Positions 24,730 through 32,857 are shown, numbered from the stretch's first letter. The stretch: DNA of 64,000 bases from Methanochimaera problematica (GCF_032878975.1 NZ_CP043875.1:734370-798369); one strand, 5' to 3'. The notes: generated by a model not told the origin, from the letters alone. Translations and numbers: made by a program.

Positions 24730-24981
24730 TTGATTATGGAAGTTGGTCCTGGGGAAATGGAAGAAAGAGAAAAAATAGTTCTTTCGATGTGTACATGTAA
24801 ATCCTGTCCGAGTTTTGAAGATTGCGGTGAAAATGGGGGATTTTGTTTTCCGACTATAGGTAAAAGTTCCTGCATAAAAACAGAAAATGGTTGTATTTGT
24901 GGCGGTTGTCCGGTATATGAGAAGATGGGGCTTAAAAATATCTATTTCTGCATCAGGGGATCAGAAAAAGAGCAGTCCTGA
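24730..24981 (+). CDS. Small cysteine-rich protein (DUF2769-like)
   Basis: Twelve Cys in 83 aa (CTCKSCPSFEDCG...CICGGCP). It lies 26 nt upstream of the rubredoxin-GltB gene. Confidence 0.5.
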   Translation: MIMEVGPGEMEEREKIVLSMCTCKSCPSFEDCGENGGFCFPTIGKSSCIKTENGCICGGCPVYEKMGLKNIYFCIRGSEKEQS

Positions 24982-25006: not shown

Positions 25007-26494
25007 GTGTCACATTATCGGTGTAACGTATGCAGGGTTTTTGAATATGATTCAGAAAGAGGAGACTCTGTAACAAATATTAAACCCGGGACTCTCCCTT
25101 TGGATTTTCCCGATGATTGGAGGTGTCCGATATGTCATTCAAAAAAAACACATCTTGAAAAACTCGAAGAAACTAAACATTTTAAGAGATCTGTTCATAC
25201 AATTACATGTCCTGTTTGTGGTGCAAAAACTGAAATTACAATTGCAAATCCTGAATTGTCTGATGTGGGGGGTTATCTTGGTGACTGGCGGCGTGGTTCT
25301 GATGAAATAGAAAATTCTATGGAAATCATTCATAAAATATCTGCTAATGGTGAATCAGTTATTGAACCAATGCGATCCCGTAAATCTAACATTTTGTGGG
25401 ATGATATTTTAATTTTGGGTGCACAGCTCAAAAAGATTCCTTTAAACCATAATGCCTTCGTATCAACGAAAACCATAATCGGCCCTAAGGCTTTAAAACC
25501 TCTGATTATTGAAACTCCTATAATAATTACTCACATGTCTTTTGGTGCTCTTTCTAAGGAAATGAAACTGGCACTTGCAAAAGGCAGCAGTGGTGCAAAG
25601 ACTGCGATAGGTTCTGGTGAAGGTGGTATTCTAAAAGAAGAATTTGAAAATTCATATAAATATATATTTGAATATGTACCCAATGGCTATAGTGTAACAG
25701 ATGATAATCTGAAAAAAGTTGATGCTGTTGAAATAAAAATTGGTCAGTCTGCAAAACCCGGCATGGGGGGGGAAATTCCTGCCGAGAAGGTAACTGCTGA
25801 GATTGCTAATATAAGGGGATTTCCTCAGGGAACTGATATAATAAGTCCTGCAAATTATGAGGACATAAAAACAGGGGATGATCTGAAAAGAAAGGTTGAC
25901 TGGCTAAGGGAAAAATCCGGCGGGAAGCCTATTGGCATAAAACTCGCAGCTGGAAACATTGAAGGTGATCTGGAGGTTGCTGTATATGCCTGCCCTGATT
26001 TCATAACGGTTGATGGAAGGCCGGGTGCAACCGGTGCTGCAAAAAAAATTATAAAAGATGCAACGTCTGTTCCTACAATATATGCATTATACCGTGCCCG
26101 GAAATATCTTGATTTTGTTGGGGCAGCGGATATATCGCTGATTATTACCGGAGGGTTGAGGATATCCTCTGATTTTGCAAAAGCAATAGCGATTGGTGCC
26201 GATGCTGTGGCAATAGGGACTTCTGCACTTATGTCTGCAGCATGTCAGCAATACAGGCTTTGTGATACGGGAAAATGTCCGGTAGGAGTTACAACACAGA
26301 GTGCAGAGCTCAGAAAAAGGCTTAAGGTTGATATTTCAGCGAAAAAAGTAGAGAATTTTTTACAGGTTTCAACAGAGGAGCTGAAAGAATTTTCCCGTCT
26401 TACTGGTAATAATGATGTTCATGAAATGTCAGTATTGGATCTTTGTACGACAAGCTCGGAAATTTCAGAAAATACCAATATTCCACACGTATAA
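25007..26494 (+). CDS. Rubredoxin domain fused to a glutamate synthase large-subunit FMN-binding domain-2 homologue (archaeal GltB-like)
   Basis: An N-terminal rubredoxin (CNVCRV...WRCPICHS), then a GltS FMN/Fe-S central-domain signature (TPIIITHMSFGALSKE...GSGEGG...ITVDGRPGATGAA...GGLR). Confidence 0.75.
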   Translation: MSHYRCNVCRVFEYDSERGDSVTNIKPGTLPLDFPDDWRCPICHSKKTHLEKLEETKHFKRSVHTITCPVCGAKTEITIANPELSDVGGYLGDWRRGSDEIENSMEIIHKISANGESVIEPMRSRKSNILWDDILILGAQLKKIPLNHNAFVSTKTIIGPKALKPLIIETPIIITHMSFGALSKEMKLALAKGSSGAKTAIGSGEGGILKEEFENSYKYIFEYVPNGYSVTDDNLKKVDAVEIKIGQSAKPGMGGEIPAEKVTAEIANIRGFPQGTDIISPANYEDIKTGDDLKRKVDWLREKSGGKPIGIKLAAGNIEGDLEVAVYACPDFITVDGRPGATGAAKKIIKDATSVPTIYALYRARKYLDFVGAADISLIITGGLRISSDFAKAIAIGADAVAIGTSALMSAACQQYRLCDTGKCPVGVTTQSAELRKRLKVDISAKKVENFLQVSTEELKEFSRLTGNNDVHEMSVLDLCTTSSEISENTNIPHV

Positions 26495-28017: not shown

Positions 28018-28090
28018 ATTCAAAAATTTTATATCTTTGTGCTTAAAGTCAACTTCAAAAAGTTTATTTACTAATTAAAAATAAATTTAT

Positions 28091-28861
28091 TTGATGTCAA
28101 ATTTTGCATGCCCAAAGTGTGGTGCGCCAGTGAATGTCGATACAGGCATTCATTTTTTAAAGTGCAAATACTGTGATACTACGGTTTTTGTTGACAGAAG
28201 TGGCATTATGTTTTACTATGCCCTTCCTTTTTTCATTGACGATGAAAAGGCAAAAGGTGTATTCCGCAGATGGACTGCAAATGCTCAGGTTGACAAGGAA
28301 CTTGAAACAAAAGGTAAAATTTTAAGCATAGATAAGCAGTATTTCCCTGTTTATCAGTTTAAGAGGGATGAAAACGGAAAAGAGAAGATATATGTAAAGC
28401 CTGCCAAAGGGACAGTTCTTCCCGGAATGAATAAACTGATTATTCCCGGTGGCGACATAAAAATCTTTGATTCATCGTTTAATCCCGGAAATGCAAAAGT
28501 TCTTGATGTTGATTTTGGCATGGATGCTTACCTTCCGGAAATTTCCGGTGAAGGAAAAGAGCAGGCACTTGTTTACTTTCCTATCTATGAGGTTTCGTAT
28601 GAATTCAATGGTGAAACTTACAAGGCTGTCATCGATGGATCTTCAGGTAAAGTCTACGCTTCAAATTATCCTACGCGGTCATCAGTTCCATATGGACTTG
28701 TAGCATTTGGAGGATTCGGTCTTGCTTTTGTTGGAGGATTTCTTGGAATTACAGTGTCTGTAATATTCTATGTTCTTGTTGCATTTGCTTTCTTCTTAGG
28801 CTATTATTTTGGAAACAAGGTTACCAAAAAGGTTACATCTGAAAAATCAGGGGTGATTTAA
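28091..28861 (+). CDS. Zinc-ribbon membrane protein, paralogue A (YdjG-like?)
   Basis: An N-terminal CPKCG...CKYC zinc ribbon, a repeated Y-x-P-[FIL]-[WY] motif and AVIDGSSGKV, and two C-terminal TM helices. Confidence 0.65.
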   Translation: MMSNFACPKCGAPVNVDTGIHFLKCKYCDTTVFVDRSGIMFYYALPFFIDDEKAKGVFRRWTANAQVDKELETKGKILSIDKQYFPVYQFKRDENGKEKIYVKPAKGTVLPGMNKLIIPGGDIKIFDSSFNPGNAKVLDVDFGMDAYLPEISGEGKEQALVYFPIYEVSYEFNGETYKAVIDGSSGKVYASNYPTRSSVPYGLVAFGGFGLAFVGGFLGITVSVIFYVLVAFAFFLGYYFGNKVTKKVTSEKSGVI

Positions 28862-29875
28862 TTGAGTGAACGAATTGTTTTCGGGATGAATTGTCCTTCC
28901 TGTGGAGGAAGGGTTGAGGTTGAAGAAGGGGAACAGCTTGTGCTTTGCCCTTTCTGCCATAGTGCTCATTCGCTTGAAAGTAAGGATGGAATATCCAAGT
29001 TCATGTACAAAATTGTTATTGACAAAGACGAGGCTCTAAAAACAGTCAAATACTGGTTTACAAACAATTTTAAAGCACGTGATCTGCCTGAAAAAGGAGA
29101 AATCACAGAAGTGTATTCTGTTTATCTCCCGTTCTGGCGTCTTTTTGGAAGAGGTAAAGCCATTGTCTGCGGTTATTCCGAGGACAAGGATGATGAGGGA
29201 CATAAAAGTAAAACCAATTACAACAATATCTGGGATAGTGATTATGTCTATACGCAGATTGCATGTGATGCGGGGGACATAGGTGTTTCATATCTGAGAA
29301 ATCTTAAGGGAGAGATTATTCCCTATGAAGAGGAGGAGATTCCTACTTTTGAGGCTACAGAGTCAAAGACAGATGCAGAAGAGGCAGGAAAGATTAAAAT
29401 TCAGGATCTAACATATCAAAATGGAAAGGGTAACATTGAAAAAGTAACTTTTTCAAAGGTTTTTGTTGATACAAAGGCATTTGAGTTGATTTTTTATCCT
29501 TTATGGGTCGTAAGGTACGACTATTTTGAAAAAGATTATTTTGCAGTGATCGATGGAGTCACGGGAGATGTTTTATCCGGAAGAGCACCCGGAGATCCTT
29601 ATTATCAGAGTCTTTCAATCGGTGCAGGTGGTTCTATTGGCGGTTTAATAACAGGCATAGGTCTTGGATATTCGCTATTGGAAGGAAGTGGTCTTTTTGT
29701 AGCAACGTCAATTGTTGGCCTTTCTGTTTTATATCTCTGCTATAATCAGTTCAGATATAAATCTGAGATTATATCCGGTGATCTTCAGCAGCCATCCTTT
29801 AATCTGTTTAAAAAAGCTGCAAATGCATCTCCTTACGGACAACAGAATAATGTTGAAATTGTATTGAGGAAATAA
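28862..29875 (+). CDS. Zinc-ribbon membrane protein, paralogue B
   Basis: A CPSCGG...CPFCHS ribbon, YLPFW / FYPLW motifs, AVIDGVTGDV, and C-terminal TM helices. The start may be the ATG at 28886. Confidence 0.65.
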   Translation: MSERIVFGMNCPSCGGRVEVEEGEQLVLCPFCHSAHSLESKDGISKFMYKIVIDKDEALKTVKYWFTNNFKARDLPEKGEITEVYSVYLPFWRLFGRGKAIVCGYSEDKDDEGHKSKTNYNNIWDSDYVYTQIACDAGDIGVSYLRNLKGEIIPYEEEEIPTFEATESKTDAEEAGKIKIQDLTYQNGKGNIEKVTFSKVFVDTKAFELIFYPLWVVRYDYFEKDYFAVIDGVTGDVLSGRAPGDPYYQSLSIGAGGSIGGLITGIGLGYSLLEGSGLFVATSIVGLSVLYLCYNQFRYKSEIISGDLQQPSFNLFKKAANASPYGQQNNVEIVLRK

Positions 29876-29877
29876 TT

Positions 29878-30465
29878 ATGGTGTCCTTAAAGACTCTTAA
29901 ATGCACAAACTGTGGAAATCCTCTGACTTCAAAAGAAAAGGATAAAATCTTTGTTTGCAGTAAATGTCAGAATATCATGGAATTTCTGGATGGGGACGTC
30001 AAAAAGGTTGAAAGTACCATTGCACGTTTTAATAAGTCCGGAAACTCAGAGAAGGTTTACATGCCGTTCTGGGTGGTAAATACTGACATAAAGGTAAACT
30101 CAGAGAAGATTGTCGGCGGAAGGGTGATGAGATTTTTGAAAAGTGAGAAAAAAATGTCTGGGAACCAGGATCTTTATGTATGTGCCGCAGACATATCTCC
30201 TGATATTGTAAAGGGATGGAATGTTGAATTCACACTTCGGCCTCCTGCAATAGAGGAGGAGGACAATTTTCAGGGAATCCCCCGTGTGCCTGCATTTATC
30301 GACAATCATGGTGCAAAACAGCATTCCGAGTTTATGTTTCTGAGACATGAAGCTGAAATATCGGGTACACTGCAGAAGATAGACTACGATTTTAACATAA
30401 ATTCTTATAGAATTGTTTATGTACCGTTTTATAAAAATAAAAATAAATATCAGGTAGGAATTTAA
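29878..30465 (+). CDS. Zinc-ribbon protein, paralogue C (soluble)
   Basis: A CTNCGN...CSKCQN ribbon with YMPFW / YVPFY motifs and no TM segment. Confidence 0.6.
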   Translation: MVSLKTLKCTNCGNPLTSKEKDKIFVCSKCQNIMEFLDGDVKKVESTIARFNKSGNSEKVYMPFWVVNTDIKVNSEKIVGGRVMRFLKSEKKMSGNQDLYVCAADISPDIVKGWNVEFTLRPPAIEEEDNFQGIPRVPAFIDNHGAKQHSEFMFLRHEAEISGTLQKIDYDFNINSYRIVYVPFYKNKNKYQVGI

Positions 30466-30479
30466 AGAGGTTTATTATT

Positions 30480-30815
30480 ATGAATGAAGATGACAAGCGT
30501 TTTCAAATGGGCTGGGGTGCAGTTGCCCTCATGTTCGGTGTATCGTTATTAGTCGGATGGTTTTCCAACTGGGATATGAATTATACTGTTGCTGTATTCT
30601 TCCTTGGTCTTGCAATGATCCTTGGGGTAATGGCATTTGGTATAGGTGAGAAAAACATTTATCTTATGGGTTTTTCCGGATTATTGGGATTTATTGGGGT
30701 TGTTTCAATACTGACACGTCCGGCAGGGCCTGATGTTCCTATTGCCCCCCTGTTTGGAGGGATTGTTGTAGGAGCAGCTCTTGCATTTATGGTGTATACC
30801 TATTCCAGAAAATAA
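30480..30815 (+). CDS. Small integral membrane protein (3 TM)
   Basis: Hydrophobic helices. It is tightly linked within the zinc-ribbon/SPFH cluster. Confidence 0.55.
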   Translation: MNEDDKRFQMGWGAVALMFGVSLLVGWFSNWDMNYTVAVFFLGLAMILGVMAFGIGEKNIYLMGFSGLLGFIGVVSILTRPAGPDVPIAPLFGGIVVGAALAFMVYTYSRK

Positions 30816-30854
30816 TCTGGTTTCTTTTTTAATTTTTTAGGAGGACTTAATCAT

Positions 30855-31391
30855 ATGGCTGATATGAGAGATCGCGTTAAAAAGGACCGTGGTCTGATAA
30901 AAAATATTGAACTTGCAATTCCTGGTTTTCGTGGTTACAGAAAACGGGAGGATTTACGCATTGCTGACAGCATGCTCCGCCTTCAACTTGCAGACAAACT
31001 AAAAGAAGAAGTAAAACTTCCTTTGGAGGGTGCAAAGGAGGCAGTTGCAAAGGCGCTCAATCTTGATATGATGAATGATATTAGCGATCTTGTTTCAAAG
31101 GTTGATACTCTTGAAGCAAAAATCAGGCATGCAGAACAGGGTTATTCCGGAATATCCCCAAATTACAGAATAGGAGAGGACCAGCTTAATGTTCTATATG
31201 AATATGACTGGAGTATGATCAATATTGTTCACGATTTGGCAGATGATTCTCAGAATATTCTTTCAAGTGCTGAGTTTGAGGATTTTTCAGGTATGAAATC
31301 CGAATGTATTAAAGTGAAGAAAAAAGTTCTTGAATTTGGAAAAACCTTCAGGGACAGACACAATACAATGGCAGACCTGGGAGCTTTTTAG
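30855..31391 (+). CDS. Coiled-coil protein of unknown function (possible PspA/ESCRT-III-like partner, unverified)
   Basis: Predicted helical and charged. It is preceded by a GGAGG SD and ends 1 nt before the SPFH gene. Confidence 0.5.
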   Translation: MADMRDRVKKDRGLIKNIELAIPGFRGYRKREDLRIADSMLRLQLADKLKEEVKLPLEGAKEAVAKALNLDMMNDISDLVSKVDTLEAKIRHAEQGYSGISPNYRIGEDQLNVLYEYDWSMINIVHDLADDSQNILSSAEFEDFSGMKSECIKVKKKVLEFGKTFRDRHNTMADLGAF

Positions 31392-32609
31392 ATGGGATTT
31401 TTTAAGAAAAGACCGGATTATCATGGCGGTGATGACATTGCTGGTGCTGATTCAAGAAAAGGATTTTACTGGGTCGAAGAGAACAAAGGAGATAACCTGA
31501 TCTGGAGACTTCCTAGAAATGTCCGGTGGAATGACAATGTAATGGTCAGGGAAGATGAATATGGTATTTTTTTCCGTGACGGAAAAGCAATGCAGGTATT
31601 TGATCGTCCTGACAGGTATGCACTTACATCTCAGAACATCACAGGTCTTCAGACCCTTAGCAAATCCGTTGTTGGTGTTGCACAGATTGGTGAGTTTTAC
31701 TGGGCTCAGAAGCGTGAATTCCGTTCAAATTTTGGAACATCAGAGCCACTGAGTTTTCGTGATACTGATTTTGGTGTTGTAAGACTTCGTGTGTTTGGTC
31801 AGTATGCCTACAAAGTTGAAGACCCGATGCTTTTAATCACACAATTTGTGGGAACAAAAGGTATCACAAAGTCTGATGAGATAATTGACTGGCTTAAAGA
31901 CCAGATTGTAATGATCTTAAATGACACTCTTGGGGAGCTTAAATCAAAGCAGAGCATGGGTGTTCTGGATATGCCCGCATATCTTCAGGAGATTGAACAG
32001 ATCTGCATCACAAAGCTTACTGGTGAAACTGAAAGATATGGCCTTAAAGTAACCAAATTTTCAGGTCTTAACATAAATCTGCCGGAAGAGGTTCAGCAGG
32101 CAGTTGACAAGAGAGGCGCAATGTCAGCACTTGGTGTCAATTATATGCAGTATCAGACTGGAAAAGCAATTGAAAATATTGGAGAAGGTGCTGCACAGGG
32201 TCCTGGAGAAGGTGCCGGTTTTGCAACAATGGGTGCAGGAATGGGCGCCGGTTTCTCAATGGCAAATGTAATGGGTCAGTCTATGGGTGGCGGTATGGGA
32301 GGCGTGCCATCTGCATTTGGAGCACAAAATAATCAGCAGCCACAGCAGCCGGTTCAATCTCAGGGCACTCCTTGTATAAAATGCGGACACCAGCTTACCC
32401 CCGGAGCAAAGTTTTGCCCTAATTGTGGTGCATCACAGGCTCCTGCAACAGTGAAATGTCCAAAATGCAACGGTGATGTTTTAGAAGGTGCTAAATTCTG
32501 TTCTAATTGTGGAAACCCGATGGTTGCAAATAAATGCAGCAATTGTGGTGAAGATTTAGATCCCGGAACCAAATTCTGCTCAGGCTGTGGAAATCCGGTT
32601 GAAAAATAA
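31392..32609 (+). CDS. SPFH/Band-7 family protein with C-terminal triple zinc ribbon (COG4260, B. subtilis YdjI-like)
   Basis: The N-terminal ~270 aa is SPFH-like. It is followed by a Gly/Ala/Met-rich low-complexity linker and then three CxxC-x10-CxxC ribbons (CIKCGH...CPNCG; CPKCNG...CSNCG; CSNCGE...CSGCG). Confidence 0.7.
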   Translation: MGFFKKRPDYHGGDDIAGADSRKGFYWVEENKGDNLIWRLPRNVRWNDNVMVREDEYGIFFRDGKAMQVFDRPDRYALTSQNITGLQTLSKSVVGVAQIGEFYWAQKREFRSNFGTSEPLSFRDTDFGVVRLRVFGQYAYKVEDPMLLITQFVGTKGITKSDEIIDWLKDQIVMILNDTLGELKSKQSMGVLDMPAYLQEIEQICITKLTGETERYGLKVTKFSGLNINLPEEVQQAVDKRGAMSALGVNYMQYQTGKAIENIGEGAAQGPGEGAGFATMGAGMGAGFSMANVMGQSMGGGMGGVPSAFGAQNNQQPQQPVQSQGTPCIKCGHQLTPGAKFCPNCGASQAPATVKCPKCNGDVLEGAKFCSNCGNPMVANKCSNCGEDLDPGTKFCSGCGNPVEK

Positions 32610-32665
32610 TAAATTACATTTTAATTTTTTTAAGAAAAATAAAATAAAAATTTAAGGCCTTTTAA

Positions 32666-32857
32666 TTAGTCATCATCAGAGTCTGAATCTCCGTAATCAT
32701 CAGACTCTGTTATTTCATGATAGCTTTCTTCTACTGAATCATCATAATCATTCAAAATTTCAGGATTTTCATTTTCATAGCGGTTTTCATTATAATTTCT
32801 TGAACTACCCTGTCCAACAGAAATTTTAATACTCTTGAGAATATCCATAAGTCCCAT
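32666..32857 (-). CDS. Hypothetical small acidic protein
   Basis: A 63 aa ORF with an extreme D/E/S/Y-rich tail. It could be non-coding. Confidence 0.25.
   Translation of the reverse strand: MGLMDILKSIKISVGQGSSRNYNENRYENENPEILNDYDDSVEESYHEITESDDYGDSDSDDD

What the first reader, a model, noticed from the sequence alone, without database searches (positions are those of the whole stretch)
28091..32609. Six-gene zinc-ribbon / SPFH membrane module, possibly an archaeal analogue of pspA-ydjGHI
Six plus-strand genes are packed with 0-40 nt gaps or overlaps. They are three paralogous proteins with an N-terminal zinc ribbon (two with C-terminal TM pairs), a 3-TM mini-protein, a coiled-coil protein, and an SPFH/Band-7 protein ending in three tandem zinc ribbons. 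The SPFH protein resembles COG4260 (B. subtilis YdjI), which sits with PspA, the zinc-ribbon protein YdjG and the membrane protein YdjH. The archaeal version here is expanded (three ZnR paralogues) and has no recognisable PspA, unless the 178 aa coiled-coil protein is a divergent one. This is a strong candidate for an undescribed membrane-remodelling or envelope-stress system.
Basis: partly seen in the sequence, partly recalled or inferred. Interest (0 to 1): 0.8.

Follow-up and report, generated by a model that had tools for sequence, protein, structure and literature searches.

The report
Archaeal YdjG/YdjI-type SPFH membrane module
Six co-oriented genes in a methanogen form a widely conserved membrane-associated module that shares two of its protein types with the Bacillus subtilis PspA-YdjGHI envelope-stress system, but has no PspA and instead carries an uncharacterised helical protein that almost always sits directly upstream of the SPFH gene.

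Summary
Six plus-strand ORFs (28091-32609; gaps 0, 2, 14, 39, 0 nt) lie in Methanoplanus sp. FWC-SCC4.

- **g1-g3:** true paralogues. All three are homologues of B. subtilis YdjG/SamG (hhalign 95-98.6 % probability, near full length).
- **g6:** a YdjI/SamI-type soluble SPFH protein. It has a Band_7_1 domain, a Gly/Ala/Met-rich linker and three zinc ribbons. It is 26 % identical to YdjI end to end.
- **g4:** a small membrane protein with four, not three, hydrophobic segments. It matches no known family.
- **g5:** not a PspA. It has no sequence or profile similarity to PspA, and it is predicted as a compact five-helix bundle with no specific structural neighbour.

g5 belongs to a large unnamed family (1340 representative clusters). 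Its gene directly precedes a Band_7_1/zinc-ribbon gene in nearly all archaeal loci examined and in four of five divergent loci sampled, at least two of them bacterial. Stop and start overlap or abut in 51 of 74 loci.

The YdjG-like trio and the 4-TM gene are frequent but movable accessories. No PspA or TPM-domain YdjH occurs in about 80 archaeal loci. One metagenomic operon reads g5-DUF4178 fusion, PspA, SPFH.

Verdict: a new variant of a known kind of system. A membrane-stress role is inferred, not shown.

The parts
28091..28861 (+). g1: YdjG/SamG-like protein (256 aa). N-terminal CxxC...CxxC zinc ribbon, alpha/beta domain, C-terminal TM hairpin. The first codon is TTG and the second is ATG (28094).
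   Evidence: ORF. The family profile matches B. subtilis YdjG with probability 98.6 %, E=1.3e-15, residues 1-209 against 50-327. AF2 model pLDDT 80.6 with TM helices 198-219 and 224-244. Orthologues begin at the same zinc ribbon.
28862..29875 (+). g2: YdjG/SamG-like paralogue (337 aa) with a larger insert and C-terminal hydrophobic segments.
   Evidence: BLASTP against YdjG is collinear, 10-278 against 55-341, E=1e-8. Profile against YdjG: probability 98.5 %, E=2e-15. g1 family against g2 family: probability 100 %.
29878..30465 (+). g3: truncated soluble YdjG-like paralogue (195 aa) with no TM segment.
   Evidence: g3 family against g2 family: probability 97.8 %, E=8e-13 over residues 3-192. 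Against YdjG: probability 95.1 %, E=3e-8. No hydrophobic segment. Weak PADLOC hit to PDC-M46A, E=6.6e-6.
30480..30815 (+). g4: small membrane protein (111 aa) with four hydrophobic segments, of an unnamed family.
   Evidence: Hydropathy. Family alignment A4. No Pfam family in any of 26 members. A similar ~4-TM ORF lies directly upstream of g5 in 72 of 86 loci.
30816..30854 (+). g4-g5 spacer with two T6 runs (30825-30830, 30833-30838) followed by GGAGG (30840-30844). Possibly a boundary between two transcription units.
   Evidence: Sequence and a terminator-like hairpin with a T-tract at 30805-30820. Its function is inferred only.
30855..31391 (+). g5: 178-aa all-helical protein of an unnamed family, the near-constant upstream partner of the SPFH gene. 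It has two highly conserved loops, PGFRGYRxRED (23-33) and HAEQGYSGIS (92-101).
   Evidence: Alignment A1. AF2 model pLDDT 86, pTM 0.80. No Pfam family; NCBIfam LIMLP_15305_fam at E=1e-13, below the cut-off. 1340 representative clusters. Adjacency to g6 homologues.
31392..32609 (+). g6: YdjI/SamI-type soluble SPFH protein (405 aa). Band_7_1 domain 38-245, Gly/Ala/Met-rich linker, three C-terminal zinc ribbons (328-404).
   Evidence: Pfam. BLASTP against B. subtilis YdjI: 26 % identity, 29-346 against 15-319, E=2e-16. No hydrophobic segment. 5560 homologues.
28018..28090 (+). AT-rich upstream region with TATA-like elements (TTTATATC at 28027-28034, TTTATTTA at 28064-28071) and no Shine-Dalgarno sequence before g1. 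Putative promoter, possibly giving a leaderless transcript.
   Evidence: Sequence only. Inferred.
32610..32665 (+). AT-rich spacer with a T7 run (32625-32631) after the g6 stop codon, followed by a convergent gene. This is the likely end of the unit.
   Evidence: Sequence and ORF map. Inferred.

Best explanation
The locus encodes a membrane-associated SPFH module that shares two of its component types with the B. subtilis PspA-YdjGHI (SamGHI) envelope-stress system.

Shown here:
- g1, g2 and g3 are YdjG/SamG homologues. Each has a zinc ribbon and an alpha/beta domain. g1 and g2 are anchored by a C-terminal TM hairpin, which would place their soluble part in the cytoplasm. g3 is soluble.
- g6 is a YdjI/SamI-type SPFH protein with no membrane anchor of its own.
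- g5 is a compact helical protein whose gene almost always sits immediately upstream of the SPFH gene, usually with overlapping or abutting stop and start codons.
- g4 is a small 4-TM protein that usually precedes g5.

Inferred, by analogy with B. subtilis, where YdjG and YdjH are needed to bring soluble YdjI to the membrane:
- The TM-anchored YdjG paralogues, probably together with g4, recruit an oligomer of g6 to the cytoplasmic face of the membrane.
- g5 binds g6 in a fixed ratio as an adaptor or regulator.
- The assembly organises or stabilises stressed membrane, or signals from it, without a PspA encoded at the locus.
- The g5-g6 pair (plus g4) is the ancient core, and the YdjG trio is a movable receptor set.
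For: - **Homology to YdjG and YdjI:**, using a B. subtilis-type locus obtained. The domains of the reference proteins were confirmed.
- **Paralogy of g1-g3:**
- **Conservation:** 254 species genomes encode a g5 relative. In the best 80 loci (Methanomicrobiales, Thermoplasmatota including DHVE2 and Methanomassiliicoccales, Methanoperedens), g5 is followed by the SPFH gene wherever the contig allows. The order GGG-4-5-I is the commonest, and the trio lies upstream, downstream or divergent in different lineages.
- **g5-g6 spacing:** -4, -1 or 0 nt in 51 of 74 loci.
- **The same g5-SPFH pair outside these archaea:** Eremiobacterota and Chloroflexota, and with YdjG-like genes on an unnamed metagenomic contig.
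- **Fusions:** zinc ribbon + g5, and g5 + DUF4178. The latter sits in an operon g5-DUF4178, PspA, SPFH.
- **Published function in B. subtilis:** YdjG and YdjH are required for membrane localisation of YdjI and PspA, and YdjI/SamI restrains SamGH signalling (PMC8581546; bioRxiv 10.64898/2026.02.06.704340).
Against: - No experiment or expression data bears on this archaeal locus.
- Two of the four B. subtilis components, PspA and the TPM-domain YdjH, are missing. In B. subtilis YdjH, not YdjG, is the main interaction hub.
- The roles assigned to g4 and g5 rest only on gene order.
- The g5 fold gives no functional clue.
- One bacterial g5 homologue (Thermoflexus) has no SPFH neighbour.
- The T-rich g4-g5 spacer may split the six genes into two transcripts.
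Confidence: 0.6

Rival explanations
1. g5 is a highly divergent PspA/Vipp1/ESCRT-III protein, so the locus is a complete PspA-YdjG-YdjI system with a cryptic PspA.
Against: There is no PspA_IM30 or Snf7 Pfam hit at E<=1 for g5 or for 10 diverse family members. hhalign of the g5 family against B. subtilis PspA gives probability 0.2 %. Foldseek against the PDB returns nothing at E<=1e-3 and no PspA, Vipp1 or ESCRT-III in the top 50. CHMP3 ranks 23rd, behind unrelated helical bundles. The predicted helices are 18-36 residues long and form a compact bundle (pTM 0.80), not a long hairpin. In L095 a g5-family domain and a genuine PspA_IM30 protein are encoded side by side, so they are distinct components.
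Confidence: 0.05
2. The module is an antiviral defence or abortive-infection system, with the zinc-ribbon proteins as sensors and the helical-bundle and SPFH proteins as membrane-disrupting effectors.
Confidence: 0.08
3. It is an SPFH-protease quality-control unit of the HflK/C-FtsH or stomatin-NfeD type.
For: g6 carries an SPFH domain, and sources name it 'membrane protease subunit (stomatin/prohibitin family)'.
Against: No protease, NfeD or FtsH domain is present in the six genes or conserved next to them. g6 belongs to Band_7_1 and lacks the N-terminal TM segment typical of HflK/C and stomatins.
Confidence: 0.05
4. The six genes are merely adjacent and have no functional link.
For: No direct evidence. 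There is a T-rich spacer between g4 and g5.
Against: Gene order is conserved across at least three archaeal lineages with unrelated flanks, and stops and starts overlap.
Confidence: 0.02

Closest known systems
B. subtilis pspA-ydjGHI (pspA-samGHI) sigma-W envelope-stress operon
   Same: It has a YdjI/SamI-type soluble SPFH protein (Band_7_1 + low-complexity linker + C-terminal zinc ribbon) encoded with YdjG/SamG-type zinc-ribbon proteins that carry a C-terminal membrane anchor. Homology is shown for both.
   Different: Here there is no PspA and no TPM-domain YdjH. YdjG is triplicated, with one soluble copy, and each copy has one zinc ribbon instead of two. The SPFH protein has three zinc ribbons. 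Two extra conserved components are present: the g5 helical protein and the g4 4-TM protein. The host is archaeal.
PspA-CesT/Tir operons containing DUF4178 and YjfL/DUF350 4-TM proteins (Ravi et al. 2024, PMC11237479)
   Same: Both are submembrane helical-protein plus small multi-TM-protein modules. One g5 homologue is fused to DUF4178 and sits next to PspA and a Band_7_1 gene.
   Different: g4 shows no DUF350 match. The window has no CesT/Tir, polyamine-metabolism or PspA genes.
Flotillin/NfeD-like (YqiK-YqiJ, FloT-YuaF) and HflK/C-FtsH SPFH assemblies
   Same: An SPFH protein is paired with a small membrane partner encoded alongside it.
   Different: Those SPFH proteins are anchored in the membrane by themselves and belong to Band_7, not Band_7_1. 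Their partners are NfeD or protease proteins, which are absent here.
Meth_adaptin archaeal ESCRT loci with an SPFH + coiled-coil + zinc-ribbon protein (Makarova et al. 2024, PMC10936438)
   Same: Archaeal SPFH proteins with zinc ribbons sit in membrane-remodelling gene neighbourhoods, and the authors note the YdjI-PspA link.
   Different: Those loci contain Vps4, ESCRT-III, adaptin-appendage and GOLD proteins. None of these is present here. Whether their SPFH protein is of the Band_7_1 type was not tested.
NCBIfam NF047596, LIMLP_15305 family (Leptospira)
   Same: g5 aligns over the full length of the model (6-170 against 9-171 of 175, E=1.2e-13).
   Different: The score of 51 bits is far below the equivalog cut-off of 210. 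That family is itself uncharacterised.

Membership tests
YdjI/SamI-type SPFH (Pfam Band_7_1, PF13421; COG4260) - g6 | Band_7_1 domain scoring above the gathering threshold | tested here: met
   124.1 bits against a cut-off of 24, E=7.9e-36, residues 38-245. B. subtilis YdjI scores 146.9 bits on the same model.
YdjI/SamI-type SPFH - g6 | No intrinsic membrane anchor; low-complexity linker followed by C-terminal zinc ribbon(s) | tested here: met
   No hydrophobic segment. Gly/Ala/Met-rich stretch at about 246-325 and three Zn_Ribbon_1 stretches. Collinear BLASTP alignment with YdjI, including linker and zinc ribbon.
YdjI/SamI-type SPFH - g6 | Membrane localisation dependent on YdjG/YdjH; recruits PspA | not testable with these tools
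   Known for B. subtilis only (PMC8581546).
YdjG/SamG - g1, g2, g3 | Zinc ribbon followed by the conserved alpha/beta domain (helix with conserved Trp, Y-x-P-F-W hairpin, second hairpin ending in D-G-x-T/S-G) | tested here: met
   hhalign of the family profiles against B. subtilis YdjG: g1 98.6 % (E=1.3e-15), g2 98.5 % (E=2e-15), g3 95.1 % (E=3e-8), each covering nearly the whole protein.
YdjG/SamG - g1, g2, g3 | C-terminal transmembrane anchor | tested here: met
   Met for g1 (model helices 198-219 and 224-244) and g2 (hydropathy). Not met for g3, which has no hydrophobic segment.
YdjG/SamG - g1, g2, g3 | Two N-terminal zinc ribbons, the first of TFIIB type as in B. subtilis YdjG | tested here: not met
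   Each archaeal paralogue has one CxxC...CxxC ribbon, and it aligns with the second ribbon of YdjG (residues 53-80). The first ribbon of YdjG matches Zn_Ribbon_TF, and the archaeal proteins do not.
YdjG/SamG - g1 | YpeB/PepSY-related (NTF2-like) fold of the central domain (Ravi et al. 2024) | tested here: inconclusive
PspA/IM30/ESCRT-III - g5 | PspA_IM30 or Snf7 sequence signature | tested here: not met
   No Pfam family at E<=1. None in 10 diverse family members. hhalign against B. subtilis PspA gives probability 0.2 %.
PspA/IM30/ESCRT-III - g5 | Long alpha1-alpha2/3 hairpin fold | tested here: not met
YdjH/SamH (TPM domain) - g4 or any other gene | TPM_phosphatase domain plus TM segment | tested here: not met
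   B. subtilis YdjH matches the TPM domain at E=3e-23. No window ORF or archaeal locus ORF matches the YdjH HMM. The g4 family has no Pfam hit.
pspA-ydjGHI operon as a system | PspA gene in the operon | tested here: not met
   No PspA hit in the 64-kb window or within 8 kb in 80 archaeal loci. The same HMM finds the PspA of L095 at E=7e-23.
Known or candidate defence systems (PADLOC-DB 2.0) | Significant matches of the component proteins to a defence-system model set | tested here: not met
   Only g3 matches a candidate model below E=0.001 (PDC-M46A, E=6.6e-6); the matches of g4, g5 and g6 all have E>=0.01.
NCBIfam LIMLP_15305 family - g5 | Score above the equivalog cut-off (210 bits) | tested here: not met
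   51.4 bits, full-length alignment, E=1.2e-13. g5 is homologous to this family but outside the curated equivalog.

The most novel reading that the evidence does not exclude
The g5 family, together with the small 4-TM protein, defines a previously unrecognised and ancient partner set of YdjI-type SPFH proteins that is shared by archaea and several bacterial phyla. This g5-SPFH core would be a PspA-independent submembrane machine, with YdjG-like zinc-ribbon anchors as receptors. In lineages that lack ESCRT, such as the DHVE2/Aciduliprofundum group (where vesicles are reported without ESCRT genes, PMC10936438), it could provide membrane repair or vesicle-related remodelling.
Probability: 0.3. 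Interest if true: 0.75.

Novelty: new variant of a known kind. Interest (0 to 1): 0.6.

Why it matters
SPFH proteins and PspA/ESCRT-III are the main known organisers of membrane integrity in prokaryotes. The only studied YdjI-type system is the one in B. subtilis.

This locus shows that the YdjG-YdjI partnership predates or crosses the bacterial-archaeal divide. It also shows that the partnership exists in a PspA-free form, built around an uncharacterised helical protein family with more than a thousand sequence clusters and no Pfam entry, whose gene is almost always fused in position to the SPFH gene.

That yields a concrete, testable candidate for how many methanogens and Thermoplasmatota maintain or remodel their membranes. 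It also flags a missing component (g5) that may matter for understanding YdjI/SamI-type proteins in bacteria.

Tried and rejected
- **g5 as PhoU/DUF47:** JGI names some Thermoflexus members this way. No Pfam support was found in diverse members.
- **g5 as the PspAA domain:** rejected on fold class. PspAA is described as three helices plus a four-stranded sheet, whereas g5 is all-helical.
- **g4 as YdjH or DUF350/YjfL:** no match.
- **Defence system:** PADLOC and PHROGs were essentially negative. The viral contig scan gave two partial weak hits.
- **afdb50 Foldseek library:** unavailable.
- **Bacterial sigma-70 promoter scan:** uninformative for an archaeon and no enrichment over shuffles.
- **Literature searches:** queries for COG4260, Band_7_1, PF13421, LIMLP_15305 and SPFH + zinc ribbon + archaea found no description of this module.
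- **Solved structures:** no solved structure is a sequence relative of g6.
- **Leptospira:** the context of LIMLP_15305 could not be retrieved.

Full report
**1. Observation**

ORF listing confirms six plus-strand ORFs:

| Gene | Coordinates | Length |
|---|---|---|
| g1 | 28091-28861 | 256 aa |
| g2 | 28862-29875 | 337 aa |
| g3 | 29878-30465 | 195 aa |
| g4 | 30480-30815 | 111 aa |
| g5 | 30855-31391 | 178 aa |
| g6 | 31392-32609 | 405 aa |

The gaps are 0, 2, 14, 39 and 0 nt. GGAGG-like sequences precede g2-g6 but not g1.

An exact protein match identifies the organism as Methanoplanus sp. FWC-SCC4, also named Methanochimaera problematica by one source.

Pfam places g6 in Band_7_1 (PF13421, E=8e-36), with three zinc-ribbon stretches at the C terminus. 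g1-g3 give only sub-threshold zinc-ribbon hits. g4 and g5 have no family. NCBIfam gives g5 a full-length but sub-threshold match to the uncharacterised Leptospira LIMLP_15305 family.

Hydropathy shows four, not three, hydrophobic segments in g4. It shows C-terminal hydrophobic segments in g1 and g2, and none in g3, g5 or g6.

**2. Paralogy of the zinc-ribbon proteins**

I built subfamily profiles from about 45 orthologues each.

- g1 against g2: hhalign probability 100 %, E=6e-55, full length.
- g3 against g2: probability 97.8 %, E=8e-13, over residues 3-192 of g3.

So g3 is a truncated soluble paralogue that stops at the second conserved hairpin and lacks the TM region.

The AlphaFold model of g1 (pLDDT 80.6) shows a zinc ribbon, a helix (50-61), two long beta hairpins (75-103 and 153-181) and a TM hairpin (198-219 and 224-244).

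**3. Direct test against YdjGHI**

A primer sequence for ydjG published in PMC8581546 retrieved two metagenomic contigs carrying a B. subtilis-type pspA-ydjGHI locus. Pfam confirmed its parts:

- YdjG has a TFIIB-type zinc ribbon.
- YdjH has a TPM domain.
- YdjI has Band_7_1 plus a zinc ribbon.

Comparisons with the window proteins:

- g6 aligns with YdjI from the start of the SPFH domain through the low-complexity linker to the zinc ribbon (26 % identity, E=2e-16).
- g2 aligns collinearly with YdjG by BLASTP (10-278 against 55-341, E=1e-8).
- The family profiles match YdjG at probability 98.6 % (g1), 98.5 % (g2) and 95.1 % (g3), each covering nearly the whole archaeal protein and starting at the second zinc ribbon of YdjG.
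- The motifs Y-x-P-F-W and Y-P-x-W-x-V-x-Y-...-D-G-x-T/S-G-x-V are shared.

**4. g5 is not PspA**

- Neither g5 nor ten diverse family members hit PspA_IM30 or Snf7.
- The family profile against B. subtilis PspA gives probability 0.2 %.
- PDB sequence and profile searches return nothing meaningful.
- The AlphaFold model is confident (pLDDT 86, pTM 0.80). It shows helices at 4-21, 31-66, 70-91, 108-140 and 144-173.
- Foldseek against the PDB finds nothing at E<=1e-3.

The most conserved residues of g5 lie in the two inter-helix loops, PGFRGYRxREDxRxxD and HAEQGYSGIS. In the model these loops lie at the same end of the bundle, which suggests a binding surface. This is inference.

**5. Comparative genomics**

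*SPFH protein.* The SPFH-zinc-ribbon protein has thousands of homologues.

*g5 family.* It has 423 close clusters. An exhaustive profile search finds 1340 representative clusters, 744 of them at E<=1e-10. Nearly all members are 170-180 aa long.

*Species genomes.* A scan of species-representative genomes found g5 relatives in 254 genomes. The best 80 loci are all archaeal:

- Methanomicrobiales (Methanocorpusculum, Methanocalculus, Methanomicrobium).
- Thermoplasmatota (Methanomassiliicoccales, DHVE2/Aciduliprofundum, Proteinoplasmatales).
- Methanoperedens.

*Neighbourhoods.* I searched six-frame ORFs from these loci with HMMs and found the following.

- The SPFH gene follows g5 wherever the contig allows.
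- The commonest architecture is G-G-G-4-5-I, the order found in the window.
- The YdjG trio (about 250 aa with two TM segments, about 340 aa with TM, about 196 aa without TM) is upstream in Methanomicrobiales and DHVE2, downstream in Methanoperedens and divergent in a few loci.
- Many Thermoplasmata have only 4-5-I, or 5-I-G.
- A small ~4-TM ORF lies just upstream of g5 in 72 of 86 loci: 51 by HMM and 21 by position and hydropathy.
- The spacing between the g5 stop and the g6 start is -4, -1 or 0 nt in 51 of 74 loci.
- No archaeal locus has a PspA or a TPM protein within 8 kb, and neither does the 64-kb window. The same PspA HMM finds a real PspA elsewhere at E=7e-23.

**6. Beyond these archaea**

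I looked up g5 homologues outside the 80 archaeal loci.

| Locus | Source | Arrangement |
|---|---|---|
| L089 | Eremiobacterota | g5, then Band_7_1/ZnR |
| L092 | Chloroflexota | g5, then Band_7_1/ZnR |
| L093 | unnamed metagenomic contig | two TM-anchored YdjG-like genes, g5, SPFH |
| L094 | probably archaeal (it carries an Hjc gene) | 4-TM, zinc-ribbon-g5 fusion, SPFH, YdjG-like |
| L095 | unnamed metagenomic contig | g5-DUF4178 fusion, PspA_IM30, Band_7_1/ZnR |
| L088 | Thermoflexus | g5 alone, no SPFH neighbour |

L095 shows that g5 and PspA are separate components that can work in the same operon. DUF4178 is a known member of PspA-CesT/Tir operons.

**7. Mechanism**

*Shown:* the homologies, the predicted topologies and the gene linkage.

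*Known from B. subtilis:* soluble YdjI needs YdjG and YdjH to reach the membrane and is required for PspA foci (PMC8581546). SamI restrains SamGH signalling (bioRxiv 2026).

*Inferred here:*

- g1 and g2, probably with g4, are membrane receptors for an oligomeric g6.
- g3 is a soluble adaptor or competitor.
- g5 is a stoichiometric partner of g6.
- The complex stabilises the membrane or signals from it.

The T-rich g4-g5 spacer and the mobility of the trio suggest two sub-modules, g1-g4 and g5-g6.

**8. Novelty**

The papers retrieved describe the Firmicute operon and note band-7 links to PspA. No search of the held library found this archaeal or PspA-free architecture, or the g5 family.

I rate it a new variant of a known kind of system. 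Homology is firm, but function is inferred.

Noticed in passing
window 28091-28133: NCBI annotates g1 as a 243-aa 'MntP/YtaF family protein' (P0273, 100 % identical over 95 % of the query). That start lies 13 codons downstream and removes the first CxxC of the zinc ribbon. Orthologues in Methanocalculus and Methanocorpusculum begin at the ribbon, so the longer ORF (TTG 28091 or ATG 28094) is the better model and the product name looks wrong.
   Followed up: partly
L005 10655-11134 (the same contig as L043): In a Thermoplasmatota MAG, a 159-aa protein with an arrestin-like fold signature (Arrestin_N, E=3e-8) directly follows the YdjG-like gene of the module (order 4TM, g5, SPFH, YdjG-like, arrestin-like). 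It did not recur among the other loci.
   Followed up: partly
L095 702-4039: A metagenomic operon encodes a g5-DUF4178 fusion, a PspA_IM30 protein and a Band_7_1/zinc-ribbon protein in a row. It is the only locus seen where the g5 family and PspA co-occur. It is a single contig of unknown organism.
   Followed up: partly
L015, L019, L022, L026, L029, L032 (downstream of the SPFH gene, minus strand): Several Methanocorpusculum loci carry an extra ORF of about 211 aa on the opposite strand just after the SPFH gene. It hits the YdjG-family HMMs. Whether this is a fourth paralogue or only a zinc-ribbon match was not examined.
   Followed up: no
L014 (minus strand, next to a divergent YdjG trio); L052: L014 has a second, 754-aa SPFH-like protein with two hydrophobic segments beside the YdjG-like trio. 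L052 has a second SPFH gene of 304 aa after a YdjG-like gene. These may be additional SPFH partners in some lineages.
   Followed up: no
window 30805-30854: A small hairpin followed by two T6 runs lies between g4 and g5, ahead of a strong GGAGG. It may be an archaeal oligo-T terminator or attenuator that separates g1-g4 from g5-g6.
   Followed up: partly
window 25007-26494 and 24730-24981: A 495-aa ORF has several N-terminal CxxC pairs ahead of a long C-terminal region I did not characterise, and an 83-aa Cys-rich ORF lies just upstream of it. They sit upstream of the module, are unrelated to it by position in other genomes, and were not analysed.
   Followed up: no
window 32666-32857 (minus strand): A 63-aa, extremely acidic ORF (its C terminus reads DDYGDSDSDDD) lies convergent to g6. 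It is not conserved next to the module in other genera.
   Followed up: no
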